Of a DNA stretch of 30,993 nucleotides, positions 3,989-17,666 are shown in pieces; the first letter of the stretch is position 1; the number at the start of each line of letters is the position of its first letter. This stretch comes from an uncultured Gemmatimonadota bacterium (GTDB lineage: Bacteria > GCA-2686955), in NCBI GenBank assembly GCA_964490075.1, contig CAZBBK010000004.1, positions 124,001 to 154,993 on the forward strand. The letters run 5' to 3'. Both the position numbers and the translations under genes were made by a program. The notes under the pieces were generated by a model. That model did not search any database, had not been told where the DNA came from, and saw only the letters and a program-made list of their open reading frames with translations.

Positions 3989-4327
3989 AGGCGCGGATCG
4001 GTTTTTGAACCGACTCAGGGGCCGAAAATGGCCAAGTAGCGACCAAAATCGCCGACTGGGGCGAGTCAGAAGCCCGAAACGACCGCTGAGAGGTCCAAAT
4101 CGCCTCCTGAGGGGGCTCAGCCCTGCGAGATGACCGCTGGACCTCTGCTCGAGGATTCCCCGGGGCATCGGGCGCGCCACGCGCATACGTGGGCAGAGGA
4201 AAACAAAACCGGCCCGGTCGTGCGTCAGGGCTGGACAAACACCCCCGCGATGGGGCGAGCAATACCGCTGTGGTACCCTGAAACGTTCGATCAACCACCC
4301 GGGGGACGGCGAGTGCAGATCAAATCG

Positions 4328-5164
4328 ATGTCCGGTGTAAGCTCGACCGGCCGATCTGCGGTGGCCCACACGGCACGGCGCAAGACCATCCGCTTCTGGA
4401 ACGAGCTGGGGCGGCGCTTTCCGCGCTCCTTTTTCGGCTCGCCGACGACCCGCTTCTACCTCTCCGAAGAGCAGCGCCTGATCGAACAACATGCCGGCGA
4501 CCTGCGCGGCAAGCGGGTTCTCAAGCTCGACCTGTGGAACGAGGCGCAGAACACCGAGGTGCTCTTCTGGATGATGCGCCAGGGGGCCCGCTGCGCCGGA
4601 GTCGACATCGCCGGCACCACCGCGCGCAAGGCCCGTGACCGCGGCCGCGAGCACCGCCTGGCGCTCGACGTGGCGGTGGCGGATGCGGTCTCGCTGCCCT
4701 TCGCGCCGGCCTCGTTCGACCTGGTCTACACCATGGGGACCCTGGAGCATATCGAGCACCCGGAGCCGGCGATCGCGGAGCTGGCGCGGGTGCTGCGCGA
4801 CGAGGGCGTGGCCTTGATCGGAGTCCCGAACCGCCGCGACCCCTTCCTCTTCGCGCTGGCATCGCGACTGGCGCAGGCGCTGGGACGCTACCCCTACGGC
4901 TACGAGCGCTGGTACACCAGCGCCGAGCTGCGCGAGCTGGTCGAGGGCGGCGAACTGCGGGTCAGCGCACGCGACACCATCCTCTTCCTGCCCTGGTTCC
5001 TGCGCGCCGCGGACATCTACCTCTGGATCTCCCGGCCCTGGCTCTCCAGGCCGATCGCGGTGCTGGTGCAGCCTTTCCGCTGGGCGGCCCGGCTGCGCGC
5101 CTGCTCGCGCCGGCTCGGCTACCTGACCGTCTGCGTGGCGCGAAAGGGGGGACGGCGCGCGTGA
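4328..5164 (+). CDS. Class I SAM-dependent methyltransferase
   Basis: GVDIA, VADAVSLPFAPASFDLVYTMGTLEH, ELARVLR...GVPN. Start uncertain (ATG 4328 or GTG 4361). Confidence 0.85.
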   Translation: MSGVSSTGRSAVAHTARRKTIRFWNELGRRFPRSFFGSPTTRFYLSEEQRLIEQHAGDLRGKRVLKLDLWNEAQNTEVLFWMMRQGARCAGVDIAGTTARKARDRGREHRLALDVAVADAVSLPFAPASFDLVYTMGTLEHIEHPEPAIAELARVLRDEGVALIGVPNRRDPFLFALASRLAQALGRYPYGYERWYTSAELRELVEGGELRVSARDTILFLPWFLRAADIYLWISRPWLSRPIAVLVQPFRWAARLRACSRRLGYLTVCVARKGGRRA

Positions 5165-8100
5165 GGGGTCCGAAGCTGACCCAGGCCCTCGTGTTGCTCG
5201 GCGTCGCGCTCTTTGCCGGGGTGCTGCTCTTCGTGCGCCCCGCCGACGAGTCTCTGAGCCCGCACGAGTTCGACGAGTCGTACTACGCCCTGCTCTCGCT
5301 GAGGCTGGCCGACGCGGAGACCTCGTGGCTGCTGCCGCGCCATCGCGGCGGAGCGCCGGCCGCAGACAAGCCGCCGCTCTTCGCCTGGATCCAGGCGACC
5401 TCGATCCGCATCGCCGGCTTCAACGTGGCGGCGCTGCGAGTGCCCTCGGCGCTGGCGGCCTGGGGCGCGATTCTGATCTGCTCTCTGGCGGCGATGCGCA
5501 TCGCCGGCGCCGACGCGGGGCTCTGCGCCGGGCTGATCCTGGCCTCGACGCCGCAGCTCTACACGCCGCACGGCGTCTGGTACGGCGTGCTCGAGGGCGG
5601 CGCGCTGCTGTTGACGACGGCGATCCTCGCCCAGTCGCTGGCCATCCTCCGGCGCATCGAGCCACCCGAGACGAGCGACGATTCGACGCCGCCGAGCGCG
5701 GGACCGACGGCCGCGCAGGGGATGGCGCTCGGCGCGTTGCTGGGGCTCCTGGCGATGTTCAAGAGCGGGCTGGTGATTCTGCCGGTGGCGGTGCTGCTGG
5801 GCTGGGCGGCGCTACGTCGCGGCCGCGAAGCGGAGGCTCTGGTGCGCGGCTCCGGCGGCGTCGTGGCGGCGGCGCTCCTGGTGTCGGTCCCCTGGTACGG
5901 GTTCGCCCTGGCGGCGGGGGAGGGCCAGTATCTGAGCGGGATCTGGGGAGTCGAAGTGCTGGGGCGAGTGGCCGGGATCGACACCATGTCGCCGCGCCCC
6001 CTCCACTACATGCCGGAGCGGATCTTCGCCGGCCTCGGCGTCTGGTCCTGGCCGGCGCTGGTGCTGGTGCCCTGGGGCCTGTGGACGGCGCCGCGGACCA
6101 TGCGCCGGCCCCTAGCCTTCGCCGGGCTGTGGGCCGCCGCGACCGTGCTGCTCTTCAGCCTGAGCCGCACCCAGTGGCCCTGGTACGGGATTCCGACCTA
6201 CCCCGCGCTGGCGATCGTCATGGGCGTGGCGCTGGCGCGGGCGGCGCGCCGGCCGCGGGGACGTCGGGTGGCGGTCGCCGCGGGGATCGCGCTCGCGATC
6301 GGATTCGGTTTCGAGAACGTCGACCTGGCGACGGGGGCATTCGGGAGGATCGGCCGCCCGGAGCTCGACGGGCTCTCGATCGCGGTGCAGCCGCCGCGCT
6401 GGCTGGCGGATGCCGCGCCCGGAGCCAGAGCCGGCGGGGTGGCGGCGCTCGGGGCGATCGCGCTGGCGGTGGCGCTCGGGGTGCGCCTCGGCGAGCGGCG
6501 GCGGCGGCGGTTCTGGAGCATGGCCCCCCTGGGCGTGGTCGCCGCGCTGGCGGCGGTATCGGGGCTGCGCGTGGCCGGGGCGGCGCGGAGGATCGACACC
6601 GCGCAGACGGAATCGCTCGGATCGGCGTTCTTCTCTCGGGCACAGGGGGTCTGGGATTTCAGCGACCAGCGGCTCCCCGAGATTCCCGAATGGTGGCGCG
6701 TCGAGCTGGAGCTGCTCGAGTCGCGGCGGCCGCGGGCGGCCGTCCCGGTCCACCTCGAGGTGCAGGTTCCGAGACCCGAGCAGGCGACCTGGACTCCCTT
6801 TTTCGCCGCCACCGGGCTGTGGTTTCACGGCGTCGAGGCTCCGGTTCTGGATGGCGCACGAGTCGCCGTCGAGGTATTCGATCTGCGACCGGGTTGGACG
6901 GCGGAGCCCTCGTGGCACAGAACCGAGCTCGTGCCGGTGGGTGGCGGGCGCTTCGAGGGTCGCATCGAGACTCGGCTCGGAAAGGGAGAAGCGCTGCGCT
7001 ACCGCTTCGTCCACAGCCCCGACGGAGGCGAGACCTGGCTTCCCGAGCTGGGCGGCTGCGTCCGCACGCTGCGTCATGACGCGGGTGGGACCGAGGTCGA
7101 GCTGGTCTTGCAGCACCAGTTCGGGGCGCCCTTGGTGCCCTCGGCCGCATCGCCCTGGATCGCTGGGCTCAGTTGCCGGGAAGTCGGCGCGCGCCAGTAC
7201 TCCCGCGAGGCGGCGGAGACCGAGCTCCCGCGCTGGCGGGAACGGGATGCTCGGCGCTCGATCGCCCAGGTCGCCGTGCCCCCGCCCCACCAGATCAGGA
7301 GGCTCTTCGCCGCGCTCGATTCGCCCGACGTGCCGCAAAAGGAGGCCGCCACGGACGCGCTGGAGGCGAGCGCCAGGTCCGAGGACCAGGGCTGCGCGAT
7401 GAGAGAGATGCTCGAGCATGCGGTGACCGGCGACGCCGTCACCCGCGCGCTCGCGGCGGCGGTGGTGCTGGGGCGCTTGGGGCCTCTGGGACGGGATGCC
7501 ATCGAGCGCCTGGTCGACGTGATCGGTGATCGGCGCCCCGGCATGACGCTGGCGTCGCTCTGGGCGCTGGAGCAGATCGGGTGGGATCCGGGCGATCATC
7601 TCGCAGGACTCCTGCCGGTGGTGAGCCACGGCGGCGGCAGCGACTCCCGCCCTCTGCTGATCGCCCTCGACCGGGCTCTGCAGGCCGACGACCGGCGGCC
7701 GGGCTCCCGGGCCGAGGCCGTCGAGGCGATCGTGGCGCTGCTCGATCGCTACGAAGAGCGGAGCATCCCCACGGCTGCCTGGGTCCTCGGCCGCCTGGGG
7801 AACGACGCCGAGCCGGCGCTCGCAGCTCTGCTGGATTGCCTGCGGATCTCGGACTGGCCCACCGCGGTCTACTGCGCCCACGCGATCCACGCCATCGCCC
7901 CCCAGCGGGCGGTGTCGATTTTCAGCGACCTGGTCGAGGATCTGAATGCGCCGATCCGCGATCGGGTGAACGCGGTTCGCGCCCTGGGCTTGCTCGGGAG
8001 AGATGCGATGCCGGCCCTTCCGGTGCTGCTCGCCGCCGTGGTGGCACCGCAGCCGGAGCTCGAAGAGGCCGCCGCCAGGGCATGCGGAAGGCTCGGCCCG

Positions 8101-8673
8101 CGCGCGACCCGGCGGCTGCGGGCGCTTGCGCGGACCAGCGCGCTTCGGGTCTCCGCCCACCTGGTGAGCGTCCTCGACGCTCGGGGCGCTTTCGAAGCCG
8201 GCGATGCCGACGTGCTCGAGACGATTCTGCGGCAGGGTGACGATGCCGCGCGCGCCGCGGCGGCCCGAGCGCTGGGGGGGCTGCGCTCGGCCGCGGCCGG
8301 CGCGGTGCCGGAGCTGGCGCGCACGCTGGAGCAGGCGGACGATCCGGCGCTGCGCCGGGCGGCGACCGAGGCCTTGGGGCGGATCGGGTCGGTCGAAGCG
8401 CTCCCGGCCCTGCTCGCGGTGCTGTCGCGCCGAGCTCTGGAGGCGCCGGCCGGGGCCAAGGACTTCGAGGCGCTGCGCGACTCCGACCGCTTGCTGCGGG
8501 TGGAGGCCGCCCGGGCCTGTGCCGCCCTGGGCACCGGAGCCGAGGCGGCGCTGCCGCACCTGGAAGCGATGCTGCACGACCGCAGCGCCGAGGTGCGGCG
8601 GGCGGCCGCGGGCGCGCTGCGCCGGGTTCGGGACCAAGCGCTCGCAGCACCATCGGCGGCAACGCGCTCGTGA
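5161..8673 (+). CDS. ArnT/GT39-like membrane glycosyltransferase fused to a C-terminal HEAT (PBS lyase-like) repeat region
   Basis: FDESYY and DKPPLFAW motifs, multiple TM segments, YGIPTYPALA; C-terminal repeats such as RRAATEALGRIGSVEALPALL and LEAMLHDRSAEVRRAAAGAL. GTGA overlap with the upstream gene. Confidence 0.8.
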   Translation: MRGPKLTQALVLLGVALFAGVLLFVRPADESLSPHEFDESYYALLSLRLADAETSWLLPRHRGGAPAADKPPLFAWIQATSIRIAGFNVAALRVPSALAAWGAILICSLAAMRIAGADAGLCAGLILASTPQLYTPHGVWYGVLEGGALLLTTAILAQSLAILRRIEPPETSDDSTPPSAGPTAAQGMALGALLGLLAMFKSGLVILPVAVLLGWAALRRGREAEALVRGSGGVVAAALLVSVPWYGFALAAGEGQYLSGIWGVEVLGRVAGIDTMSPRPLHYMPERIFAGLGVWSWPALVLVPWGLWTAPRTMRRPLAFAGLWAAATVLLFSLSRTQWPWYGIPTYPALAIVMGVALARAARRPRGRRVAVAAGIALAIGFGFENVDLATGAFGRIGRPELDGLSIAVQPPRWLADAAPGARAGGVAALGAIALAVALGVRLGERRRRRFWSMAPLGVVAALAAVSGLRVAGAARRIDTAQTESLGSAFFSRAQGVWDFSDQRLPEIPEWWRVELELLESRRPRAAVPVHLEVQVPRPEQATWTPFFAATGLWFHGVEAPVLDGARVAVEVFDLRPGWTAEPSWHRTELVPVGGGRFEGRIETRLGKGEALRYRFVHSPDGGETWLPELGGCVRTLRHDAGGTEVELVLQHQFGAPLVPSAASPWIAGLSCREVGARQYSREAAETELPRWRERDARRSIAQVAVPPPHQIRRLFAALDSPDVPQKEAATDALEASARSEDQGCAMREMLEHAVTGDAVTRALAAAVVLGRLGPLGRDAIERLVDVIGDRRPGMTLASLWALEQIGWDPGDHLAGLLPVVSHGGGSDSRPLLIALDRALQADDRRPGSRAEAVEAIVALLDRYEERSIPTAAWVLGRLGNDAEPALAALLDCLRISDWPTAVYCAHAIHAIAPQRAVSIFSDLVEDLNAPIRDRVNAVRALGLLGRDAMPALPVLLAAVVAPQPELEEAAARACGRLGPRATRRLRALARTSALRVSAHLVSVLDARGAFEAGDADVLETILRQGDDAARAAAARALGGLRSAAAGAVPELARTLEQADDPALRRAATEALGRIGSVEALPALLAVLSRRALEAPAGAKDFEALRDSDRLLRVEAARACAALGTGAEAALPHLEAMLHDRSAEVRRAAAGALRRVRDQALAAPSAATRS

Positions 8674-9968
8674 GCGAAAACGAGCCGCTCCCGGAGCGGA
8701 TCGTGCTGATGCCGATCCGCCCCGACGACCCGGGCGCGGCACCGGAATGGGGCGGTGTCGCGACCTTCTGCGCCGCCCTGGCGAGGCGTCTCGACGCCCG
8801 ATCCGGTCCGCCCTGCGCGCTCCTCTACCCGAGCGCTCCGGAGCCGGAGCCGGAGCGCCGCGCCGGAGCGCCGCGCCGGATTCCGGTGACGGTGGGCGAC
8901 GGACCGTGGGCCGCCCGCATGGCACGCTTCAACGCCCGGAGCGCGGAGCTGCTGGGGGCACGACGCCACCGGATCCTGGCCTGCGACTACTGGGTGGTAC
9001 CGCCCTCGCTGCCAAGCTCTTCGACCCTAACCGCCGTGGTTCCGCTGCTCCCCTCGCAGCTGGCCGCGGTGCTCTTGGCCGAGCGGCTGCCCCGGCCGCT
9101 GGTCCCGCTGGCCGTGCGCGCCGCCTCCGTCGTCCCGTACCTCCGCGGGCACCGGCCGCTATGGGCGGCCTCGCTGGCGGCGGAGCGGGCGGCCCTGCGG
9201 CGGGTCGACCGGCTCTTGCTGCCGGCCCCCTCCATGGTCGACCGGACGCGCGCGCACTGCCGCTCCGACGCGCGCATCGAGCTGCTGCCCTGGGGAACGC
9301 CGGAACCGATCGCGGCGCCGCCGGAGCGCGCGGAGGCCCGCCGGCTGCTCGGACTCGAGCCGCAGGCCAAGCTGATCGTGACCCTGGGCCGCATCCATCC
9401 CCAGAAAGGGCTGGTGGACCTGGTCCGGGCCTGGGAACTGCTCGAGCCGCCGGCGCCGACCCTGGCGTTGGTCGGGCCGGTGGCCGATCGGCGCCTGGCG
9501 CGGCGACTGGAGCGCCTGGCCGCCGGTCGCGGCGACGCCCGCCTGCTCCTGCCCGGACCGGCCGATCAGACGCGCTGCGCGCTCTGGCTGGCCGCGGCCG
9601 ACGTCTACGCATCGGGCGCGCTGCACGAACCCTTCGGCCTGGCGGTGCGCGAGGCACTCCGCGCCGGGGTGCCGGTCGCGGGGCTGGCGGTCGACGGCCT
9701 GGTGGAGGTGCTGCGTCCGCCGGGGGCGATTGCGGTGGCGTCACAGCCGGCTGGCGATCGCGCCGAGCGCTTGGCCGGCGCCTTGCGCCGATTGCTGGAG
9801 CGACCGCCGCGGCCCGCCGAGGTGGCCGCCGCGCTGCCGGCCCGCACTCTCGCCGACGCCGCCGAGGACGCGCTGCGGCGCGCCTGGGACGAGGGGGACG
9901 AGGCGGACGAGGCAGGCGAAGCGGGAGCGGGGACGGAGCCGGGGGCGCCGGGAGAGGACGCAGGGTGA
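8670..9968 (+). CDS. GT4 (GT-B) glycosyltransferase
   Basis: LGRIHPQKG and ADVYASGALHEPFGLAVREALRAGVPV (ExFG...EA motif); GTGA coupling. Confidence 0.85.
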   Translation: MSENEPLPERIVLMPIRPDDPGAAPEWGGVATFCAALARRLDARSGPPCALLYPSAPEPEPERRAGAPRRIPVTVGDGPWAARMARFNARSAELLGARRHRILACDYWVVPPSLPSSSTLTAVVPLLPSQLAAVLLAERLPRPLVPLAVRAASVVPYLRGHRPLWAASLAAERAALRRVDRLLLPAPSMVDRTRAHCRSDARIELLPWGTPEPIAAPPERAEARRLLGLEPQAKLIVTLGRIHPQKGLVDLVRAWELLEPPAPTLALVGPVADRRLARRLERLAAGRGDARLLLPGPADQTRCALWLAAADVYASGALHEPFGLAVREALRAGVPVAGLAVDGLVEVLRPPGAIAVASQPAGDRAERLAGALRRLLERPPRPAEVAAALPARTLADAAEDALRRAWDEGDEADEAGEAGAGTEPGAPGEDAG

Positions 9969-11524
9969 GCGCCGGCAGGGCCGGGCCGACGCCGTCCGCC
10001 ACCGCCGGCGCGCTGCTCCTGGTCTACCTGGTCGGGGCGCTGGTGGTGTGGCTGCGCTCGCCGCCCCACGGCATCGACGACGCCCATATCTTCTATCGCT
10101 ACGCCGAGAACCTGGCCGCCGGCAGGGGTTTCGTGTTCAATCCCGGCGGCGAGCGGGTCGAAGGGGTGACCAGTCTGAGCTGGGTGGCGATTCTGACCGG
10201 CGCCGTGCGGCTCGGACTGCCGGTCGACGCGGTCGCGCGGGCGCTCGGGGTTCTCTGCGGCGCCGCGACCGTCGTCCTGAGCTACTTCCTCGGGCTGCGG
10301 GTGCTGGGCTCTCGCCGGGCGGCGGCCTGCGCCGGTCTGGCGCTGGCGCTCGATCCCGGCTTTCTGGTCTGGAGCGCGGCATCGGGGATGGAGAGCGCGC
10401 TCTACGCCTTGCTGGCGACCGGGTTGCTGCTGGCGGCGCTCGGCGGACGCCCGGGAACGACGGCGGCGCTGGCGCTGCTGGCGGCGCTCACGCGGCCGGA
10501 GGGGATCGCGCTGTGGCTCCCCACGGTCGCGATCCTGAGACGCCGCGGGCGCCACCCCTCCGGACGACTCGCGGCACCCTTCGCGGTCGCCGCTCTGGTC
10601 CTCGGGTTGGTCTTCGCCGCTCGCGTCGGCTACTTCGGCCACCCCCTTCCCAACACCTACTACGCCAAGGTGCACGGGCTGCACCTGCGCGCCCTCGCCG
10701 AGGGGGTGGTCTACTGCCTGGGCATGGCGACGCGTTACCACCTGATCCTGGCGGCGGCGCTGGTCGGGGCGGTGGGTGCCCTGCGCGCCGGGCGGGGCGA
10801 GGGTGCGGTGGTCGCGACCGGGGCCTTCGTGGCGACAGGGTTTGGGACCTATGCGCTGGCGGGAGGCGACCATTTCGCCGCCTGGCGCCACTTGCACTAC
10901 GGCTACCCCGCGCTGGTGGTGCTGGCGGCGGCGGGGTTGGTGCGGGGAGCGCGGGCGTGCGGGGGGCTCGACGCGGGGGGCGATCTGTCGCGGCGGACGG
11001 CGCGGGTCGCCGGGCTGGTGATCGTGCTCTGGGCGGCCGGCAACCGGAGTCTTCTCGGGGCGCTCGACCTGGAGCTCGATCTGGCGGCGCGCGGGCGCGA
11101 GGAGGGGGCGTACTTGCGGGACTGGGCACCGCCGGGAGTCAGGGTAGGAGTGTTGCTGGCGGGGGCTTTGCCCCATGCCTCGGGGGTGCAGTGCTTCGAC
11201 CTGCTGGGGCTCAACTCCACCGCGGTCGCCCACGCCGCGAAGCCGCGCTTCGGGCACGGTCCCAAGAACCACGAGTCGTTCGATCGCGAGACATTTTTCC
11301 GGGTCGCGCCCGAAATCGTGTGGCATGGTCTGGAGGTTGCCGGCGGGCGTTGTGCTCCGCATGCCGTCGAGCAGATGCTGATGCAAGGGCTGCCGGACGA
11401 CCCGCGATTCGAGGCGCTCTACGAGCCGCGGCTGCTCACGCTCCCCGGCGGTCGTTCCCACGCCTTCTTCGCGCGGCGCGACCTGGAGCTGGAGTCGAGC
11501 GTGCCCTGTGCCGCGGCGGATTGA
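9965..11524 (+). CDS. Polytopic GT-C-like membrane protein (putative glycosyltransferase)
   Basis: DDAHIFYRYAENLAAGRGFVFNPGGERVEGVTS, SGMESAL, LTRPEG, PLPNTYYAK, FDLLGLN. The start is the GTG 9965 overlapping the upstream TGA; the ORF-track start 8204 is an over-extension. Confidence 0.8.
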   Translation: MSAGRAGPTPSATAGALLLVYLVGALVVWLRSPPHGIDDAHIFYRYAENLAAGRGFVFNPGGERVEGVTSLSWVAILTGAVRLGLPVDAVARALGVLCGAATVVLSYFLGLRVLGSRRAAACAGLALALDPGFLVWSAASGMESALYALLATGLLLAALGGRPGTTAALALLAALTRPEGIALWLPTVAILRRRGRHPSGRLAAPFAVAALVLGLVFAARVGYFGHPLPNTYYAKVHGLHLRALAEGVVYCLGMATRYHLILAAALVGAVGALRAGRGEGAVVATGAFVATGFGTYALAGGDHFAAWRHLHYGYPALVVLAAAGLVRGARACGGLDAGGDLSRRTARVAGLVIVLWAAGNRSLLGALDLELDLAARGREEGAYLRDWAPPGVRVGVLLAGALPHASGVQCFDLLGLNSTAVAHAAKPRFGHGPKNHESFDRETFFRVAPEIVWHGLEVAGGRCAPHAVEQMLMQGLPDDPRFEALYEPRLLTLPGGRSHAFFARRDLELESSVPCAAAD

Positions 11525-11566
11525 GCAGAAGCTGACGCGCCGCGATCCCTTCAAGAATCGGAGGCG

Positions 11567-11944
11567 ATGGACGATCTCCTCGATGATCCCTCCATGCCGC
11601 GTGGCTTGATCGAGATGCGAGGGGCTGTCACCGACGAGGAGATCCGAATGGAAATGCGGGTGCCCGAAGTCATCGCGGGAAAGAGCGCCGATTGCCAGGT
11701 GCGTGGATTCACGAAGGAGCCGGGAGATCTGATCGAGGTCGGTGAGTATCTCGGCGAGCTGAGGGTGGAGTACGACGAAGGCGACTTCACCGATTGCCCG
11801 GTCCTCTACTACGGGGATCTGGTGGCGAGGGCGCGGGGGGTGCTGGTCGAATCCCGTGTCGAGCAGGTCAGCAAGCAGGGGGACGTGCTGGCGATCGTCG
11901 GGGATCGGCCCGGGAGCTTCTCGCTCGAATTCGTCACGTTCTAG
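11567..11944 (+). CDS. Stand-alone biotinyl/lipoyl-attachment-domain-like protein lacking the acceptor lysine
   Basis: GGAGG RBS; MEMRVPEV...KEPGDLIEVGEYLGEL...ARARGVLVE...GDVLAIV follows the lipoyl-domain pattern; the hairpin is YDEGDFTDCPVLYYG with no Lys. Confidence 0.6.
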   Translation: MDDLLDDPSMPRGLIEMRGAVTDEEIRMEMRVPEVIAGKSADCQVRGFTKEPGDLIEVGEYLGELRVEYDEGDFTDCPVLYYGDLVARARGVLVESRVEQVSKQGDVLAIVGDRPGSFSLEFVTF

Positions 11945-11957
11945 GCAGGAGACAGAG

Positions 11958-13556
11958 ATGGAGCGCTGCAAGCTCGTCATCGTCGATCTCGACGGCACAC
12001 TTTGGGATGGGATCCTGTTGGAGGATGGGATCGGAGGACTGTCGCCTCGAGCCGAGATGGTCGCCACGCTGCGCGAGCTGGATCGTCGCGGGATCTTGCT
12101 CTCGATCGCGAGCAAGAACCACCCCTAGGACGCCCACCGTGCCCTGGAAGAGCTCGGTCTCGCCGATCTGTTCGTCTTTCCGCAGGTCACTTGGGATCCA
12201 AAGTCCGATGCGGTCGGGCGAATACTGAAATCGCTACGTTTTTCTCCAGCTCATGCGATCTTCGTGGACGATACGGCGTACGAGCGAGAGCTGGTGAAGG
12301 CGATGATTACGAAGATCACGGTCACCACGCCCGAGGAGTTTCCCGGTCTGGCGAGCGGCGAGGGATTCACCGGTTACGCCACCGAGGAGTCGGGCGCCCG
12401 CAAACAGTTCTATCGTGACGAGGAGAAGAGACAGAAAGCGGAAGCCGCCCACGAAGGGGCCTATCGGAGTTTCTTGCGGGAGATCGGTCTCGAAATCCGC
12501 ATCGGCACGGCGACCGATCGGTGCGCGGGTCGGGTGGCGGAGCTGGTGCAGCGCACCAACCAGATCAACTTCTCCAACAACCGCTATGACCAGGAAGAGG
12601 TGCGCGCGCTCCTCGATTCCCCGCGGCACCCTTCCTTCGTCGTCTCCGCCGAGGACCGCTTCGGACCGTACGGAATTATCGGTTTCGCTTGCCTCCGTGA
12701 CCGGGGCGATGGCTCGCTCTTCATGCAAGATCTGATGCTCTCGTGCCGAATACAAGGGCGCGGCGTCGAGAGCGCGCTGATTGCGTCGCTCGCGAAGCTG
12801 ATGGCCGATGGCGGACATCGGAGGCTGGTCGGGCTCTATCGATCCACCGAACGCAACGCTCATATCGCCAACGTATATACGCGACTCGGTTTCGAGCCGA
12901 TCGAGCAGGAGGGCGAGGGACAACACTTCGCCCTCGATCTCACCGGGGCTTTGCCTGCGGCGCCTTCGCATGTGCGCGTCGTTCACTGTGAGGATGTGGC
13001 GGCCGAGAAGAACGAGGGCATTCCTTTCATTCGCCGGATCGTCGAGGACTTGGTCAAGCACGACGTAGTGACCGGCAAGATCATCGATGTGGGCGCGGGT
13101 TGGGACGGCGTGCTGGGTGAGGACTGCGATTCCTGGCTGAGTCGCGGGGACAACAGCCACATCCGACTCGATCAAGAGGCATATCCCCGCACCGACATCG
13201 TGGCGAACGCGCAGGATATGCCCGATGTCGAGACGGAGACCTTCGATTCATTGCTCTGCCTCGAGGTGCTGGAGCATTGCACCAACCCCTTCGAGCTGAG
13301 TCGGGAGATCATGCGTGTCTTGCGCCCTGGCGGCGCAGCCGTCATCTCCGCGCCCATGAACTACGTGATCCACGAACACCCAGGGGATTACTGGCGCTTC
13401 ACCCCCGACGGACTCAAGATCCTGTTGCAAGACCAGGCCGAGGTAGTTCAGGAAGACGTCGAGGGCGACCCGGAGCACCCGGTCCGGACCGTGCTGACGA
13501 TTCGCAAGCGAACCAGCGCTTCGGCCCGTGCCGACAGCTCTTCCGCGATCGCTTGA
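11958..13556 (+). pseudogene. fkbH: FkbH-like HAD-IIIC/GNAT glyceryl transferase fused to a class I methyltransferase, interrupted by an in-frame TAG at 12126-12128 (nonsense allele or read-through)
   Basis: AGGAG RBS; DLDGTLWDG, LSIASKN, FVDD..YE, ELVQRTNQIN, DRFGPYGIIG, LSCRIQGRGVE; then IIDVGAG, EVLEH, PGDYWRFT. The frame is continuous on both sides of the TAG (532 aa if read through). Confidence 0.8.
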
Positions 13557-15238
13557 TTGAAGCGGTCGTTGGGGTGGTGGTCGGGGTGCAGCCACCTGCC
13601 GAGCTCCTTGCCTTGCTCTCCGTTCAGGCATCGGTAGCCCACGAAAAGAGCGCCCCTCGCCTCCGCGATACGGCGGATCGCCCGGTCGAACTGTGCGTGT
13701 CGCTCGGCCTGTAGGCGGCTGAGAGCCGGCATCGGCAACATGCCGAGATATGCCTGGGTCGCGTCCGGGCAATGATGAGACAAGATGTCCGCGAGCTCAT
13801 CGAGTGTCGCCTCGAAGCGCTCGGGCTTCGCTTGCGGCTGGTACTCGTAGACCCGATGGGGGTGAACCCGGGGAACCCGACCGAGCTCGAGGAAGTCGAT
13901 CCCCGCCATGACCCCTTTGCGTTCGATCAGATCGGTTCGGCCGAGACAGATTGCGATCAGGTCGGGCGCGAACGCGGCCAACTGGTCTCCCAGTGTGTGC
14001 GCGACGGTTTTCGCAAGCGACACACTGGCGCGGGGGGATGCGAGATTCCAGAGCTCAACGCTACGCCAGGCATAGATCCGCCCACGAGAGAAGAGGTAGT
14101 CCTGGCTCCAGGGCTGGGCGCTCAGCGGCGCGGTCTCTCGGGATTCTCGCGCGAATCGCTGCTCGATGAGCCACATGAAGCGCGCGGGCCACATGCCCTG
14201 GATCTCGTAGCGCTTCCGGAGCATGGCGGTCCATTCGGCATGAGCGTCGCGGGATGCCTTCGCGGATCGTCGGCGGTTCGATTCGCTGGCGCCGATGATC
14301 AGCACGCGAAATGGGTCGATGCCCTGGCTCGGCTCTTCCAGGCGGACGCGGGGAAGAGAGCGTTCACGGGTAGCCGTCGCCGAGTGATTCCTGGTCGGAA
14401 CCGTCTCGCCTCCCGGTCGCTGCGGAGCGAGGGAGCCGGGTCGGATGGCGCGCGCGATCGCGGCCGCGGTGGCGGCGTGGTGCTTTTCGGCGGGGAAGCC
14501 GTCCGGCAAGAACCACCCCTCGTTCTCGGCGGTGCTGCGCTCGGAGATCGACAGGGGCGGCAGGTAGAGGTGGCCGACTCGCTCGGCCGCCGCCTGCGCG
14601 GCGTTCCGGAAGCCGGCCAGGCGCTCCCCTTGGTCGCCGATCGTCCGGGGATCGAGATCGAGTCCGAGGACGACTCCTCGCGCGTTCGGGCAGCACTTCC
14701 GGAGCACCCGCGCGAAGCGCGTGAGTGTCGCGCGAAAGGCCTCGACTTCTCGCAGTGCTTCGAACTTGTAGTGCATCTGGGGCTCGAACAGGTGGGACTC
14801 ACCGGCCTCGAGAAGATCGCTGCCCTGGAGCGAAAGATCCTCGCCGCGGAAATCGTGACTCCCGACGCAGGTCACCACCAGGTCCGGATCGAATGCCTGG
14901 ACTCTTCTGAGGAGGGCGGCCAGCAGGGCTTCCAGGCAGGTGAGCGTGGCACCGGCGATGGCGACGTTCCACAGTCGGCCGTGCTCCCAGTCGCTGGTCT
15001 TTCCCGGCCGCTGCAGGGCGCTCCGGTGCCGCGAAAGGGCCCGGTCGTCGGGAGCCGCCAGACCGCGGGCAGCGGCGTCGAGATGGGCCATGAGCAAGGC
15101 GGGCCAGCTCCCCGGGGTTCGGTAGCGACACCGCAGCTCTTCCATCCAGATGCGGTGCGCATCGGCGCTCCACGAGAGCGGAAGGGCGTTGGTGGTCTCG
15201 CTGCCGCCCAGAGCGAGGACTTTGAACGGTTTCGACAT
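13448..15238 (-). CDS. Tandem SGNH/GDSL-hydrolase-like protein (two domains, no signal peptide)
   Basis: Duplicated blocks: VLALGGSE / VLIIGASE, LWNVAIAGA / LWNLASPRA, FDPDLVVTCVGSHD / FAPDLIAICLGRTD, PDGFP / PDHHPN. GGAG upstream of ATG 15238. Confidence 0.7.
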   Translation of the reverse strand: MSKPFKVLALGGSETTNALPLSWSADAHRIWMEELRCRYRTPGSWPALLMAHLDAAARGLAAPDDRALSRHRSALQRPGKTSDWEHGRLWNVAIAGATLTCLEALLAALLRRVQAFDPDLVVTCVGSHDFRGEDLSLQGSDLLEAGESHLFEPQMHYKFEALREVEAFRATLTRFARVLRKCCPNARGVVLGLDLDPRTIGDQGERLAGFRNAAQAAAERVGHLYLPPLSISERSTAENEGWFLPDGFPAEKHHAATAAAIARAIRPGSLAPQRPGGETVPTRNHSATATRERSLPRVRLEEPSQGIDPFRVLIIGASESNRRRSAKASRDAHAEWTAMLRKRYEIQGMWPARFMWLIEQRFARESRETAPLSAQPWSQDYLFSRGRIYAWRSVELWNLASPRASVSLAKTVAHTLGDQLAAFAPDLIAICLGRTDLIERKGVMAGIDFLELGRVPRVHPHRVYEYQPQAKPERFEATLDELADILSHHCPDATQAYLGMLPMPALSRLQAERHAQFDRAIRRIAEARGALFVGYRCLNGEQGKELGRWLHPDHHPNDRFNQAIAEELSARAEALVRLRIVSTVRTGCSGSPSTSS

Positions 15239-15387
15239 CTGCACTCCGAAAAAAGGCGCGGGGCGCCGAGATGGGAAGTCGTTCTTGCGCGGTTCTCTGG
15301 CTGATCGACGATCCCTTGGAGCGCTGAACCCGCCTTCGTTCGCCAGCTCGCGCCGCGACAGGACGCTCACTCCGAGCGCACGTGAGC

Positions 15388-15537
15388 TTGACATTTTCCG
15401 CACCGAGCGGGGTTCAGTTTGACAGTCGACGCCGATGGGTCGCCGAATTGGGCCTCTGGGGCGCCTCTGGGGGCCGAATCGGGCTCCCAAGAGCCCAAGA
15501 TGTCAAACTGAACCCCGCTCGGTGCGGGAGATGTCAA
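15388..15537. repeat. 150-bp element with 37-bp inverted arms (35/37 match) around a 76-bp spacer; MITE-like or invertible element
   Basis: 15388-15424 TTGACATTTTCCGCACCGAGCGGGGTTCAGTTTGACA versus 15501-15537 TGTCAAACTGAACCCCGCTCGGTGCGGGAGATGTCAA. Confidence 0.9.
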
Positions 15538-15577: not shown

Positions 15578-16828
15578 TCACGCCCCCCGGCGGCGGATCC
15601 CGCGCCTTCTTCGCGCGGCGCGACCGGTGCCTGGAATGGAGCTCTCGCTGTCGTGGGGCAGCATCCGGCGCAGCAGGCGATCGTAGGAGCCGACCATCGA
15701 GTCGACGCCGAAGCGGAAGCGCGCGGTGTCGCGGGCGGCGCGGCGCAGCTCGGGGAAGGAGTCGGGGGATTGGAGCAGGCTCTCGAGGGTGCGCAGCCAG
15801 GCCGGGCGGTCTTCGCGGTCGAGGATGAAGCCGGTCCGGCCGTGCTCGATCAGGTGCGGCAGGGGGCCGACCGCGCTGGCGACGACGGGCAGGCCGTGGG
15901 CCATCGCCTCGACGGCCACCAGCCCGAAGGTCTCGTAGTGGGTGGGATGGAGCAGAGCCCAGGCCGAGCGATAGAGGTCGGCCATCTGGTCGAAGGGTAC
16001 GCGCAGGCGCAGGTTGAGCCAGTGGTCGTTGCGGTGGCGGCGCACCAGGCGCTCGGCCAGCGGGCCGTCGCCGGCGATGGTGAGACGCAGATCGGGGATC
16101 CGCTCGCGGAGCACTCGGGCCAGCTCGATCGCCTCTTCCACCCCCTTCCAGGGGACCAGGCGGGCGACCACGAGGAGCTCCGGGGTGCGCGAGCGGGCGT
16201 CGGGATCGGGCGTCTGGTGGGCCTGCACCGCCATCGGGATCGCGGTGGAGGGGGCCGGGGTGTAGCGGGCGGCGGCGGGGCGCGACTCGTCGTCGAAGAG
16301 GACCACGCGGTCGAGACGCCGGTAGCGGCGGCGCAGGCCGCGATCGACCAGGGTCAGGCCGGCTCTGGTCGCCAGAGGAAGGTGGGGCCGCTCGGGCATG
16401 CGGGCACGATGGAAGAAGAGCAGCTCGAAGAGGGGGTCGGCGCCGAACACCGCCGCGACCGGTCGGCCGCGGGCGCCGCCCAGGGCGGCCAGCGCCCCGA
16501 CCTGGAAGTCGAGCGCCAGCCAGAGGTCGACGCGATCGGTGAGCGATCGCACCTCGCGGGTCAGCGCTCTGAGCAGTAGCGCGCGGGCGCGTCTCGATTC
16601 CCAGCCGCGGGCCCAGGGGTGGCGGGCCCAGCGCACGCGCACCTGGTCGGGCCAGTGCTCCAGGAAGGGTTCCGGTCCCACCAGGGGAGCCACGACCTCG
16701 ACGCGCCAGCCGCGGCCGGGCAAGCCCTGGGCGAGCTGGGTCGCCAGTCGGGCGCAGCCGCCGATTCGAGGCAGGAAGCTGTAGGAAACCAACCCCACGA
16801 CCGGCTCGGGGCGAATGGGCTCGGACAT
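15578..16828 (-). CDS. GT4 glycosyltransferase
   Basis: SYSFLPRIGG, VARLVPWKG, IAGDGP, YETFGLVAVEAMAHGLPVVAS; GAGGA RBS before ATG 16828. Confidence 0.9.
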   Translation of the reverse strand: MSEPIRPEPVVGLVSYSFLPRIGGCARLATQLAQGLPGRGWRVEVVAPLVGPEPFLEHWPDQVRVRWARHPWARGWESRRARALLLRALTREVRSLTDRVDLWLALDFQVGALAALGGARGRPVAAVFGADPLFELLFFHRARMPERPHLPLATRAGLTLVDRGLRRRYRRLDRVVLFDDESRPAAARYTPAPSTAIPMAVQAHQTPDPDARSRTPELLVVARLVPWKGVEEAIELARVLRERIPDLRLTIAGDGPLAERLVRRHRNDHWLNLRLRVPFDQMADLYRSAWALLHPTHYETFGLVAVEAMAHGLPVVASAVGPLPHLIEHGRTGFILDREDRPAWLRTLESLLQSPDSFPELRRAARDTARFRFGVDSMVGSYDRLLRRMLPHDSESSIPGTGRAARRRRGIRRRGA

Positions 16829-16926
16829 GAAGTCCTCTTGCATCGCGACGCCATCGGGGGGGGGAAGCTCGTTCGGTCCTGGTAAGGATAGCTTCCCCGG
16901 CCTCGTCTTGCGCTGCCGACAAGCAA

Positions 16927-17006
16927 AGGGCCACCCAACCGCGGCGGGGAGTCCGACGGTGGGGCGGCCCTGGCGAGCCGCGCAGGAGGGGGGTGGCGCG
17001 GCTCGC
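16927..17006 (-). terminator. Two tandem hairpins downstream of hsp20; the second is followed by a T-rich tail
   Basis: Perfect 11-bp stem 16973-16983/16996-17006; 15-bp imperfect stem 16927-16941/16957-16971 followed on the minus strand by TTGCTTGT. Confidence 0.55.
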
Positions 17007-17034
17007 TGTAGTTCTTGCTGGTTGGAGGTCAGCG

Positions 17035-17472
17035 CTAGCGGCGAGTGATCGGCAGGCTGCGGGGCTTCGCTTTCTCCGACTTGGGCAGGCGAATCTCCAG
17101 CAGGCCGTTGTGGAACTCGGCGCCGGCGGCCTCGGCATCGACGCCGCGGGGCAGGCGGAAGCTGCGCGTGAAGCTGCCGCGGCGACGCTCGATTCGATGA
17201 TAGGTCAGCTCTTCGCTCTTCGCCTCCTGCGAGGTCTCGCCCTTGACGGTCAGCAGGCCGTCCTCGACGGTGACGCTCACCTGGCTCTCGTCGAAGCCGG
17301 GGATCTCGAGCACCAGGCGGTGGGCGTCGGCGTCCTCCAGCACGTCGGCGCGGGGCAGCCAGCCGCCGGCGGCGTCGTCGGCGCAGGCGGGGGCGTGCCA
17401 GAGGTCGGAGAAGAAGCGATCGATCTCGTTGCGAAGGGCGGGGGCGGCGGGATTCCAGGTTGCGAGTCTCAT
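17035..17472 (-). CDS. hsp20: Hsp20/alpha-crystallin small heat shock protein
   Basis: WLPRADV, EIPG, LTVKGE, ERRRGSFTRSFRLP, AEFHNGLLEIRLPK; GGAAGGA RBS before ATG 17472. Confidence 0.95.
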   Translation of the reverse strand: MRLATWNPAAPALRNEIDRFFSDLWHAPACADDAAGGWLPRADVLEDADAHRLVLEIPGFDESQVSVTVEDGLLTVKGETSQEAKSEELTYHRIERRRGSFTRSFRLPRGVDAEAAGAEFHNGLLEIRLPKSEKAKPRSLPITRR

Positions 17473-17595
17473 GACGGGTTCCTTCCGAGGGGGATGTTCC
17501 GGCTGAGGCCGGGTTCGGCGGCGCGGCCGGTGGATGCTGGGTGTGGGGCGGGGCCCCGGTCGATGCGAGGGTTTCTCGCGTTCGCTGGTCGCCTT

Positions 17596-17612
17596 TGCAA
17601 CCGGCGGGCCAA
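17596..17612 (-). promoter_or_regulatory. sigma54 (-24/-12) promoter of hsp20
   Basis: Minus strand TTGGCCCGCCGGTTGCA versus consensus TGGCACG-N4-TTGCW; exact GG-N10-GC spacing. Confidence 0.75.
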
Positions 17613-17641
17613 CTCGGAGCGCAGGTGCGGCGGAAAGACAA

Positions 17642-17666
17642 CAACTCGTTGGAAAACCACTAGTTA
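17642..17666. promoter_or_regulatory. AT-rich IHF-like site between the promoter and the enhancer
   Basis: TTCCAACGAGTTG (minus) and AAACCACTAGTTA (plus), each about 2 mismatches from WATCAAN4TTR, in a GC-rich background. Confidence 0.45.

What the first reader, a model, noticed from the sequence alone, without database searches (positions are those of the whole stretch)
11567..11944. Lipoyl-like domain with TDK replaced by TDC in an extended hairpin
Seen: the flanking strands match the lipoyl/biotinyl pattern (PGDxIEVGEYLGEL ... AxAxGVL ... GDVLAIV). The attachment turn is about 11 residues longer, acidic, has no Lys, and reads F-T-D-C-P (Cys77, codon 11795-11797) where lipoyl domains have E-T-D-K-A. 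Inference: the protein cannot be lipoylated or biotinylated at that turn; an exposed Cys on a lengthened loop could be a genetically encoded swinging thiol.
Basis: partly seen in the sequence, partly recalled or inferred. Interest (0 to 1): 0.72.

Follow-up and report, generated by a model that had tools for sequence, protein, structure and literature searches.

The report
Lysine-less lipoyl-fold partner of FkbH
A small protein shaped like the carrier domains that normally hold lipoic acid or biotin has lost the attachment lysine, carries a cysteine on a lengthened tip, and is predicted to put that cysteine against the active-site cysteine of its neighbouring enzyme, so it may be an acyl carrier that needs no cofactor.

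Summary
No Pfam or NCBIfam model hits it. An AlphaFold model (pLDDT 91.9) matches lipoyl and biotinyl carrier domains (Z 9.0-7.2, top 14 rows), and hhalign to this genome's own lipoyl/biotinyl domains gives 87.5% probability with an 11-residue hairpin insertion. The lysine column holds Tyr42, so T-D-C is not positionally T-D-K.

The family is rare (14 clusters). Cys16 is invariant. Cys50 is in 11 of 14. The three without it form a subfamily that, in both of its loci I could read, is not next to FkbH.

The Cys50 subfamily lies directly upstream of an FkbH-methyltransferase fusion in four lineages, with an SGNH-like gene alongside and no ACP nearby. A complex prediction scores 0.71 against 0.00 for controls. 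It places Cys50 against FkbH Cys263, the only cysteine invariant in 119 of 119 FkbH domains.

Best reading (about 40%): a cofactor-free carrier that takes a glyceryl unit as a Cys50 thioester. No experiment supports this. In this window the FkbH gene carries a premature TAG.

The parts
11648..11944 (+). Gene for the 98-aa lysine-less lipoyl/biotinyl-fold protein (P0001).
11693..11695 (+). Cys16 codon (TGC). It is invariant in 14 of 14 family members and aligns with the Gly of the E-G motif of genuine lipoyl domains.
11774..11800 (+). Residues 43-51: the acidic, lysine-free loop at the tip of the lengthened hairpin (strands 34-42 and 52-60). Model confidence is lower here.
11795..11797 (+). The complex model puts it in contact with FkbH Cys263.
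11958..13556 (+). FkbH domain (HAD-IIIC phosphatase plus GNAT-like part) fused to a class I methyltransferase. It starts 13 nt after the small gene's stop. An in-frame TAG interrupts it at codon 57.
12126..12128 (+). Premature TAG in the FkbH-methyltransferase gene, where the L001 homolog has Glu. Contigs of three runs from one study carry the same letters.
12744..12746 (+). Codon of FkbH Cys263 in the invariant S-C-R motif. It is the only cysteine conserved in 119 of 119 FkbH-domain proteins aligned.
13448..15238 (-). Convergent gene for a tandem SGNH/GDSL-like protein (596 aa counted from the Met that matches the homologs). It is conserved beside the pair in L001 and L002, and L009 has a single-domain homolog.

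Best explanation
The gene encodes a free-standing, 98-residue barrel-sandwich-hybrid protein. It is homologous to lipoyl and biotinyl carrier domains, has lost the modifiable lysine, and has gained an 11-residue acidic extension of the carrier hairpin that bears Cys50.

It is the dedicated partner of the enzyme encoded 13 nt downstream, an FkbH-methyltransferase fusion. FkbH enzymes take 1,3-bisphosphoglycerate, form a (phospho)glyceryl thioester on their own cysteine, dephosphorylate it, and pass the glyceryl group to the phosphopantetheine thiol of an acyl carrier protein.

Proposed mechanism here:
1. The lengthened hairpin enters the FkbH active site.
2. Cys50 takes the glyceryl group from FkbH Cys263 by transthioesterification. 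The small protein thus acts as a carrier whose thiol is genetically encoded rather than supplied by a prosthetic group.
3. The fused methyltransferase O-methylates the tethered glycerate.
4. The neighbouring SGNH-like protein releases it or transfers it to an acceptor, possibly a cell-envelope glycan, given the glycosyltransferase-rich surroundings in this window.

Shown by computation: the fold, the loss of lysine, the insertion, the conservation pattern, the gene linkage, and a predicted interface with Cys50 next to Cys263.

Inferred: binding in the cell, acyl transfer to Cys50, methylation on the carrier, and the role of the SGNH protein.

In this particular genome the FkbH-methyltransferase gene carries a premature TAG, so the pathway is probably inactive here.
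For: Fold and homology:
- AF2 model pLDDT 91.9.
- Top 14 VIA-align rows are lipoyl/biotinyl carriers, Z 9.0-7.2.
- hhalign Prob 87.5% with an 11-residue insertion and Tyr42 in the lysine column.

Gene linkage:
- The small gene lies directly upstream of an FkbH-methyltransferase fusion in the window (13-nt gap), in L001 and L002 and in L009-L011, which hold one identical protein.
- Pokkaliibacter has adjacent locus tags WH50_12570 and WH50_12565.
- In all, 8 of 15 FkbH-methyltransferase ortholog clusters could be paired with a small-protein cluster. Four pairings are direct, one is by locus tags, and three are by equal source and contig length.

Cys50 tracks the linkage:
- It is invariant in the 11 subfamily-A sequences.
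- Subfamily B, the three members without Cys50, has two loci I could read. The genome's own paralog on contig C17 and G003's copy are not beside an FkbH gene.
- The genome has only one FkbH gene.

No conventional carrier nearby:
- No PP-binding match on the window's 155-kb contig.
- None on the module contigs of G002 and G004.
- None among the 50 short ORFs (55-200 aa) around the L009 module.

Complex prediction:
- ipSAE 0.70, 0.71 and 0.72 against a best control of 0.00 (3 controls).
- That mark was reached by 58 of 80 solved complexes and 2 of 110 mismatched pairs.
- Partner pLDDT at least 88; the runs agree in at least 94% of contacts.
- Listed pairs include FkbH residues 263, 264, 266 and 202 with small-protein residue 50.
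- PDB sequence search returned no FkbH complex with a lipoyl-fold protein (closest: HAD part, 3slr), so a pass from memory is unlikely.

Active-site identity:
- Cys263 is the only cysteine conserved in 119 of 119 FkbH domains.
- OzmB is described as forming phosphoglyceryl-S- and glyceryl-S-enzyme intermediates before transfer to an ACP (PMC9057759, passages).

Interface specificity:
- Interface residues L90, R94, F95, G167 and R170 are invariant in the 14 orthologs.
- They differ in the 105 generic FkbH-like proteins: N/D at 94, L/M/I at 170, D at 168.
- Two ortholog-specific arginines therefore face the acidic hairpin.

Precedent for the logic:
- FkbH plus a stand-alone ACP, with an O-methyltransferase acting on the tethered unit (PMC7489565, passages).
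- An FkbH-like domain loading glycerate onto a PCP, followed by an OMT domain (PMC13122637, passage).
Against: - There is no experiment of any kind. Binding and chemistry rest on one structure-prediction job, run with my own shallow alignments (14 and 11 rows), for which the tool says its calibration holds only roughly.
- Cys16, not Cys50, is the invariant cysteine of the whole family (14 of 14). The model does not explain it.
- Subfamily B lacks Cys50, so the fold family's original role cannot depend on it.
- Three PP-binding genes exist elsewhere in the genome. One of them could serve FkbH in trans.
- 7 of 15 FkbH-methyltransferase ortholog clusters have no identified small partner, and 3 of 11 Cys50 proteins sit on contigs too short to show context. 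My searches could not reach those loci.
- The loop has lower model confidence: the block of residues 41-50 has mean pLDDT 74.
- No fused form of the two proteins was seen.
- A single cysteine on a roughly 9-residue loop has much less reach than an 18-20 Å phosphopantetheine arm (length recalled). Visits to the methyltransferase and SGNH sites were not tested.
- In the window the partner gene is broken by a TAG, which is also present in contigs of three runs.
Confidence: 0.4

Rival explanations
1. Non-covalent subunit. The small protein binds the FkbH-methyltransferase as a structural, specificity or regulatory subunit, either a lid or plug over the active site or a recruiter of substrate. It never carries an acyl group. 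This would resemble the lysine-less BCCP homologs (BADC) that bind and inhibit plant acetyl-CoA carboxylase.
For: - Gene linkage and the predicted interface fit a subunit as well as a carrier.
- Lysine-less carrier-fold proteins acting as regulators are known (BADC; abstracts in the listing).
- Subfamily B works without Cys50.
- ACPs exist elsewhere in the genome.
Against: - Cys50 is invariant in all 11 subfamily-A sequences, within an invariant D-C-P.
- It is modelled in contact with the one universally conserved FkbH cysteine. A plug would not need that.
- No ACP gene accompanies the module in any of the four lineages examined.
Confidence: 0.25
2. Thiol-redox or sulfur-relay protein centred on Cys16. 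The family's function would be persulfide carriage, disulfide exchange or metal binding. Cys50 would be a second, resolving or partner thiol. It might form a regulatory disulfide with FkbH Cys263.
For: - Cys16 is invariant in 14 of 14.
- Subfamily B copies lie near a class V aminotransferase (the cysteine-desulfurase-type fold) in two genomes, and near a radical SAM gene in one.
- Residues 17, 19 and 20 next to Cys16 are in the modelled interface.
Against: - The aminotransferase is separated from the small gene by non-conserved genes, and nothing downstream is conserved.
- No sulfur-relay family matched.
- FkbH chemistry as described needs an acyl acceptor, not a redox partner.
- The Cys16-Cys50 distance could not be measured, because the tools give no coordinates.
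Confidence: 0.15
3. Acceptor of a stable modification. The FkbH-methyltransferase builds a permanent glycerate-derived group on Cys50, a new prosthetic group on a lipoyl-fold domain. The modified protein then works elsewhere.
For: Same linkage and interface as for the carrier reading. Lipoyl-fold domains are typically hosts of prosthetic groups.
Against: A thioester is labile, and no enzyme that would convert it to a stable link is evident in the conserved three-gene module. No downstream client is conserved across lineages.
Confidence: 0.1
4. Decayed relic. The gene is a degenerate lipoyl or biotinyl domain, or a spurious ORF in GC-rich DNA, with no function of its own.
For: No Pfam or NCBIfam match. 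The neighbouring enzyme gene is broken in this genome.
Against: - The same 97-104-aa protein is conserved at 31-89% identity across distant lineages with 12 invariant columns.
- It folds with pLDDT 91.9.
- It keeps its position next to FkbH-methyltransferase.
Confidence: 0.03

Closest known systems
Lipoyl domains of 2-oxoacid dehydrogenase E2 subunits (Pfam PF00364 Biotin_lipoyl), e.g. PDB 3crk_C, 1iyv
   Same: Same barrel-sandwich hybrid fold (Z 9.0 and 8.6). Recognisable flanking-strand motifs. Remote sequence homology.
   Different: No Pfam match. The lysine column holds Tyr42. The hairpin is 11 residues longer and acidic, with Cys50. There is an extra C-terminal strand. The protein is free-standing and is not in a dehydrogenase or glycine-cleavage context.
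Biotin carboxyl carrier proteins and B. subtilis BLAP (PDB 2d5d, 1bdo, 1z6h)
   Same: Same fold (Z 8.4-7.5). BLAP is the best sequence-profile hit (E 1.3e-3) and is also a small stand-alone protein.
   Different: No Met-Lys-Met. No carboxylase partner.
BADC proteins of plants (lysine-less BCCP homologs that inhibit acetyl-CoA carboxylase)
   Same: A carrier-fold protein that has lost the attachment residue yet still binds the enzyme complex (abstracts listed).
   Different: BADC have no replacement thiol and act as negative regulators. Here a conserved cysteine sits on an inserted loop aimed at the partner's active site.
FkbH/OzmB with stand-alone ACP (FkbJ/OzmE) and O-methyltransferase in methoxymalonyl-ACP and tetronate pathways; FkbH-OMT-PCP loading modules (suomilide bsl cluster)
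   Same: An FkbH domain with the HAD Asp-x-Asp motif and the invariant S-C-R cysteine, coupled to a methyltransferase and to a roughly 100-aa partner encoded alongside. The same logic is described in PMC7489565, PMC9057759 and PMC13122637 (passages).
   Different: The partner is an all-beta lipoyl-fold protein, not a four-helix phosphopantetheinylated ACP or PCP. No PKS or NRPS genes and no dehydrogenases are present. The FkbH surface at the modelled interface carries ortholog-specific residues.
FkbH-domain gene cj1302 in the Campylobacter jejuni flagellar glycosylation locus
   Same: An FkbH-domain gene in a glycan-modification locus (PMC7099621, passage). A di-O-methylglyceric acid derivative of pseudaminic acid is reported on that strain's flagellin (PMC3958885, passage). 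This shows that methylated glycerate can decorate glycans.
   Different: The link between cj1302 and that modification, and the presence of ACP genes in that locus, are recalled, not taken from a call. No lipoyl-fold partner is known there.

Membership tests
Biotin/lipoyl attachment domain (PF00364; single hybrid motif) | Flattened beta-barrel (barrel-sandwich hybrid) fold | tested here: met
   AF2 model pLDDT 91.9. VIA-align Z 9.0-7.2 to 14 lipoyl/biotinyl carriers with 67-76 residues aligned. Foldseek top rows are the same families, at weak E-values.
Biotin/lipoyl attachment domain (PF00364; single hybrid motif) | Match to the family HMM above the curated cut-off | tested here: not met
   No Pfam family even at E<=10. 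No NCBIfam hit. The L009 homolog gives only Biotin_lipoyl_2 at E 0.0052, 17 bits against a cut-off of 29.8. hhalign to five genuine domains of the same genome: Prob 87.5%.
Biotin/lipoyl attachment domain (PF00364; single hybrid motif) | Modifiable lysine at the tip of the beta-hairpin (D-K-A or M-K-M) | tested here: not met
   The lysine column aligns with Tyr42. There is no Lys in loop 43-51 and no invariant Lys in 14 sequences.
Biotin/lipoyl attachment domain (PF00364; single hybrid motif) | Association with 2-oxoacid dehydrogenase, glycine cleavage or biotin carboxylase components | tested here: not met
   The neighbours are an FkbH-methyltransferase and an SGNH-like protein. The genuine domains of the genome lie on other contigs.
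Phosphopantetheine-type carrier proteins (PF00550 PP-binding) | Four-helix bundle with a conserved Ser for phosphopantetheine | tested here: not met
   The model is all-beta and has no PP-binding match.
FkbH-type glycerate loading system | FkbH domain (TIGR01686) above cut-off, with HAD Asp-x-Asp and the invariant cysteine | tested here: met
   L001 227 bits, L002 226.8 bits, L009 216.3 bits, against a cut-off of 146.65. The window scores 222.7 bits but has 1 TAG inside. D10, D12 and C263 are invariant.
FkbH-type glycerate loading system | Phosphopantetheinylated ACP or PCP as glyceryl acceptor, encoded alongside | tested here: not met
   No PP-binding match on the module's contig in G000, G002 or G004, and none among the 50 short ORFs (55-200 aa) around the L009 module. 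ACPs elsewhere in the genomes are not excluded as acceptors.
FkbH-type glycerate loading system | Formation of glyceryl-S-enzyme from 1,3-bisphosphoglycerate and transfer to a carrier thiol | not testable with these tools
   This needs enzymology. Only a predicted Cys263-Cys50 contact is available.
SGNH/GDSL hydrolase-acyltransferase (neighbouring gene) | Match to the GDSL models above cut-off | tested here: met
   Lipase_GDSL_2 55.3 bits (cut-off 32.9) and Lipase_GDSL 37.5 bits (cut-off 23.6) for window 13448-15490. The L009 homolog matches only weakly in Pfam (E 0.0076) but aligns with the window protein at E 4e-29.

The most novel reading that the evidence does not exclude
This is a new class of acyl carrier protein that needs no prosthetic group. 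A lipoyl-fold domain uses a genetically encoded cysteine on a lengthened, acidic hairpin to accept a glyceryl thioester directly from the catalytic cysteine of FkbH. It then presents the unit to a fused O-methyltransferase and to an SGNH-type transferase, taking the place of the phosphopantetheinyl-ACP in this pathway.
Probability: 0.35. Interest if true: 0.9.

Novelty: new variant of a known kind. Interest (0 to 1): 0.72.

Why it matters
Every acyl, lipoyl or biotinyl carrier I can recall depends on a post-translationally attached arm (phosphopantetheine on Ser, lipoate or biotin on Lys); no call tested this. A carrier whose reactive thiol is simply a cysteine would be a third solution to the same problem. 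It would show how a lipoyl-type domain can be repurposed. It would also give natural-product and glycan engineers a carrier that needs no phosphopantetheinyl transferase.

The work also assigns a testable partner and chemistry to one orphan group, the FkbH-methyltransferase fusions that have no ACP nearby.

If instead the protein proves to be a non-covalent subunit, it is still a bacterial counterpart to the BADC type of lysine-less carrier-fold regulator.

I found no paper that mentions an FkbH-like protein together with a lipoyl domain (0 papers). The 12 best-ranked papers of a search on lipoyl-like domains, cysteine, thioester and carrier protein described nothing similar. These searches cover only the held library.

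Tried and rejected
- Pfam at E<=0.01 and E<=10, and NCBIfam, gave nothing for the small protein.
- phmmer against PDB sequences gave only an irrelevant E 0.37 hit.
- The one long hit of the representative search, P0010 (2424 aa, 7 stretches), is a repetitive surface protein that matches a short low-complexity stretch. I dropped it from all alignments.
- Fused forms of the small protein with FkbH were not seen. The length-unrestricted phmmer search returned only proteins of 97-104 aa. The 15 FkbH-methyltransferase ortholog clusters are 430-544 aa, with no N-terminal extension.
- tblastn of a Roseibium ortholog against plasmids found only generic FkbH genes, with 0 records at 80% coverage or more.
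- The contexts of P0020, P0022, P0024, P0028-P0030 and of P0005-P0007 could not be fetched.
- L009 and L011 are not held by the genome search.
- Earlier findings of this scan: nothing by place or by sequence. The word search returned only lysine-bearing lipoyl carriers in arsenic or Hdr contexts, which do not bear on this case.
- Sequencing runs: no RNA holder is listed, so nothing can be said about expression.
- The tools return no model coordinates, so burial of Cys16 and the Cys16-Cys50 distance could not be measured.
- The ESM Atlas features search agreed with the fold (23 of 30 hits in Biotin_lipoyl clusters, score 0.91). Its top six clusters are unnamed proteins of about 120 aa that I could not retrieve.
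- I considered reading the TAG at 12126-12128 as a sense codon and rejected it. The small gene itself ends in TAG at the position where all homologs end.
Full report
**1. What is in the sequence**

A search of the 5.8-billion-protein collection returned four close proteins. All are 98 aa and cover only the last 78% of the query. Every further relative found is 97-104 aa and starts at the same Met. That Met is ATG 11648, preceded by GAGGAG at 11636-11641. I therefore take 11648-11944 as the gene (98 aa, P0001).

**2. Is it a lipoyl-like domain**

Family libraries are blind to it:
- No Pfam family matches, even at E<=10.
- No NCBIfam family matches.
- A single-sequence search of PDB sequences gives no meaningful hit.

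- A profile of nine family members against PDB sequences gives 12 hits at E<=10. Eleven are lipoyl or biotinyl proteins; the best is B. subtilis BLAP at E 1.3e-3, and the twelfth is an RNA polymerase subunit.
- An AlphaFold2 model built from that alignment has mean pLDDT 91.9 and pTM 0.79. Its strands are at 2-4, 15-19, 34-42, 52-60, 64-69, 80-84 and 93-96.
- Foldseek against the PDB ranks lipoyl domains first, but only at E 3.5e-3 and weaker.
- VIA-align against 48,161 representative chains gives Z 9.0 (PDH E2 L2 domain, 3crk_C; rmsd 2.9, 76 residues aligned), 8.6 (1iyv) and 8.4 (BCCP 2d5d). The top 14 rows are all lipoyl or biotinyl carrier domains. Membrane-fusion proteins and other hybrid-motif proteins follow.
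- The tool notes that a best Z of 7-8 is common for models without a clear Foldseek match. The weight therefore lies in the uniform identity of the top rows and the near-complete coverage of those small domains.
- hhalign of the 14-member family against five genuine lipoyl/biotinyl domains of the same genome (found, aligned) gives Prob 87.5%, E 3.6e-6.
- The ESM Atlas feature search puts 23 of 30 hits in Biotin_lipoyl clusters.

The fold is established as far as a model can establish it. Remote homology is likely.

**3. The hairpin**

Both, together with the PDB profile alignments, put the lysine column at Tyr42.

In the model the two strands of the hairpin are lengthened (34-42 and 52-60) and are joined by a nine-residue loop, 43-51. 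That loop is acidic, has no Lys, and has lower confidence: the block of residues 41-50 has mean pLDDT 74. Across 14 sequences no Lys column is invariant. Lipoylation or biotinylation at the turn can be excluded on sequence grounds.

**4. Conservation of the cysteines**

The family is small. Five true relatives appear among 1.84 billion cluster representatives, and there are 14 clusters in all after a profile search.

Invariant columns are M1, P6, C16, G26, E37, D49, P51, G56, L58, G64, G78 and F91.

Cys50 is present in 11 of 14. P0008 has Ser, P0013 has Asn and P0014 has Ala. These three form a subclade with a two-residue insertion, which I call subfamily B. Within the other 11 (subfamily A), D49-C50-P51 is invariant. 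It aligns with the Gly of the E-G motif of true lipoyl domains.

**5. Context: a conserved three-gene module**

The downstream gene. Thirteen nucleotides after the stop, a gene begins at 11958 that encodes an FkbH domain fused to a class I methyltransferase. The FkbH domain comprises a HAD-IIIC phosphatase and a GNAT-like part (TIGR01686). The methyltransferase matches Methyltransf_11 at E 2.4e-10.

The same pair recurs:
- in two MAG records labelled Gemmatimonadetes (L001, L002);
- in three metagenome records that hold one identical, only 36%-identical protein (L009-L011);
- in Pokkaliibacter plantistimulans, judged by adjacent locus tags.

How common the enzyme is. A search with the enzyme shows a sharp boundary. 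Fifteen clusters of FkbH-methyltransferase orthologs (430-544 aa, E<=1e-156) are followed by generic FkbH-like proteins of about 610 aa that match only the FkbH part. Eight of the 15 can be paired with a small-protein cluster. Seven could not be checked.

The third gene. It encodes an SGNH/GDSL-like protein:
- A tandem-domain form lies convergent downstream in the window (13448-15238), with 58% identity in L001 and 34% in L002.
- A single-domain homolog lies immediately upstream in L009 (E 4e-29). By the ATG-to-stop listing, its end overlaps the small gene's start by four bases.

What is not conserved or not present:
- Flanks beyond these three genes differ between lineages.
- No phosphopantetheine-type carrier gene lies near the module. 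There is none on the 155-kb window contig, none on the module contigs of G002 and G004, and none among the 50 short ORFs (55-200 aa) around the L009 module.

Composition. In the window and in L009 the module is lower in G+C than its flanks: 0.62-0.67 against 0.73-0.79, and 0.43-0.53 against 0.64-0.66. This suggests lateral acquisition.

**6. Cys50 tracks the FkbH neighbour**

The window's genome holds a second family member on contig C17, with Ala at position 50. The genome has only one FkbH gene, the one in the window. The C17 copy lies near a class V aminotransferase, a metallo-beta-lactamase-fold gene and a radical SAM gene.

The Ser50 copy of genome G003 also has the class V aminotransferase upstream and no FkbH in the 3.3 kb held.

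Both subfamily-B loci that I could read therefore lack FkbH, and all subfamily-A loci that I could read have it. The numbers are small, and the genomes of this phylum are kin (4 of 5 carry the family).

**7. Predicted complex**

I folded the L002 pair: the 544-aa enzyme with a 14-row alignment, and the small protein with an 11-row alignment of subfamily A only. I left subfamily B out on purpose.

Result:
- ipSAE was 0.70, 0.71 and 0.72. The best of three controls was 0.00.
- That mark was reached by 58 of 80 solved complexes and 2 of 110 mismatched pairs in the tool's calibration. The tool says the calibration holds only roughly for user alignments.
- Partner pLDDT was at least 88. The runs agreed in at least 94% of contacts.

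The interface uses small-protein residues 17, 19-20, 36-37, 39, 43-44, 47-56 and 97-98. This is the lengthened hairpin and its base. On the enzyme it uses residues 87-97, 166-170, 201-202, 263-267 and 299-309. Among the best-determined pairs are enzyme residues 263, 264, 266 and 202 with small-protein residue 50.

Residue 263 is the Cys of an invariant S-C-R motif. In my alignment of 119 FkbH-domain proteins it is the only cysteine conserved in all 119. Those 119 are the 14 orthologs plus 105 of the generic hits listed. I excluded P0019, the window's truncated piece.

A review describes OzmB as forming phosphoglyceryl-S-OzmB and then glyceryl-S-OzmB before transfer to the ACP OzmE (PMC9057759, passages). 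That the S-C-R cysteine is this residue is my inference from its unique conservation. I did not read it in a paper.

The remaining interface residues fall into two sets:
- Universal FkbH residues: N201, Q202, R264, Q266 and R299.
- Residues invariant only in the 14 orthologs: L90, R94, F95, G167 and R170. P97 and T168 are nearly invariant. Generic FkbH-like proteins have N/D at 94, D at 168 and L/M/I at 170.

Two ortholog-specific arginines thus face an acidic hairpin. This is what a co-evolved docking surface would look like.

A PDB sequence search returned no FkbH complex with a lipoyl-fold protein. The closest entry found covers only the HAD part of an uncharacterised protein, 3slr. The pass is therefore unlikely to come from a remembered structure.

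**8. Most likely mechanism**

Published logic:
- FkbH plus a roughly 90-aa stand-alone carrier gives glyceryl-S-carrier, and O-methyltransferases act on the tethered unit (PMC7489565, passages).
- NRPS loading modules combine an FkbH-like domain, an OMT and a PCP to make methylated glycerate starters (PMC13122637, passage).

The module here has the FkbH and methyltransferase parts in one polypeptide and a roughly 100-aa partner, but that partner has a lipoyl fold and a cysteine. I therefore propose that Cys50 receives the glyceryl group from Cys263 by thioester exchange, that the fused methyltransferase modifies it, and that the SGNH-like protein releases or transfers it.

SGNH proteins acting as O-acyltransferases on polysaccharides is recalled knowledge, not a call result. 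The glycosyltransferase and PMT-like genes around the module in this window fit a glycan acceptor but are not conserved in other lineages. O-methylated glycerate on a glycan has a precedent in C. jejuni flagellin (PMC3958885, passage), whose glycosylation locus holds an FkbH-domain gene (PMC7099621, passage). The causal link between those two is recalled, not read.

I put this reading at about 0.4. The main rivals are:
- a non-covalent subunit or lid, BADC-like (abstracts), at 0.25;
- a Cys16-centred redox or sulfur-relay role, at 0.15;
- a stable modification of Cys50, at 0.1.

**9. What speaks against or remains open**

- Nothing has been measured.
- Cys16 is unexplained.
- Subfamily B shows that the fold family can do without Cys50.
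- Housekeeping ACPs exist elsewhere in the genome.
- Seven ortholog clusters and three Cys50 proteins lack context information.
- The tools give no coordinates, so burial and distances were not measured.

In this genome the enzyme gene carries TAG at codon 57 (12126-12128), where the L001 homolog has Glu. Contigs from three runs of one study show the same letters with no differences; run X1 may be the source of this DNA. The stop is therefore probably real rather than an error of a single assembly, though all three runs come from one study and contigs hide rare variants. TAG is a normal stop here, since the small gene itself ends with it. The module is probably inactive in this population, although the small ORF is intact and 89% identical to its L001 counterpart.

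**10. Verdict**

Relative to known systems this is a new variant. It combines a lysine-less lipoyl-fold protein, a kind known from BADC and many hybrid-motif domains, with the known FkbH-carrier-methyltransferase logic, in a form I did not find described (within the held library only). If Cys50 does carry the acyl group, it would be a new class of carrier protein.

Noticed in passing
window 12126-12128: In-frame TAG at codon 57 of the FkbH-methyltransferase gene, where the L001 homolog has Glu. Contigs of runs X1 (possible source), X2 and X3 from one study carry identical letters. Likely a real nonsense allele.
   Followed up: yes
G000:C17:57437-57733 (L017 8438-8737): A second family member in the same genome, with Ala in place of Cys50. 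It lies near a class V aminotransferase (L017 5665-6855), a metallo-beta-lactamase-fold gene (7610-8395, minus strand) and a radical SAM gene (3109-4869, minus strand). The aminotransferase neighbour recurs in G003 (L015). An ORF of 173 aa with coding-like GC3 and no Pfam match follows it directly (8741-9262).
   Followed up: partly
window 11001-14000; L009 4001-10000: The three-gene module is lower in G+C than its flanks in two unrelated lineages, which suggests lateral transfer of the module.
   Followed up: no
window 5161-8673 and 8204-11524: Very GC-rich (0.73-0.79) genes for a PMT_2-type membrane glycosyltransferase fused to HEAT repeats and for a second PMT-like membrane protein. GT4 glycosyltransferases (8670-9968; 15578-17644, minus strand) and a methyltransferase (4130-5164) flank them. 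This looks like an envelope glycan cluster around the module. Overlapping ORFs in several frames make the gene limits uncertain.
   Followed up: no
L009 10107-12294: Next to the module's island lie genes matching the anti-phage ATPase IteA (E 8.2e-56, below its cut-off) and, weakly, the peptidase IteS. A sulfatase-like STM4013-family hydrolase (8304-9095) and a lysA-like decarboxylase (3643-4947) flank the module.
   Followed up: no
ESM Atlas: The six best feature matches are unnamed clusters of about 120-aa proteins, mostly from Pseudomonadota. They score slightly above the Biotin_lipoyl clusters and may be further lysine-less relatives. I could not retrieve the sequences.
   Followed up: no
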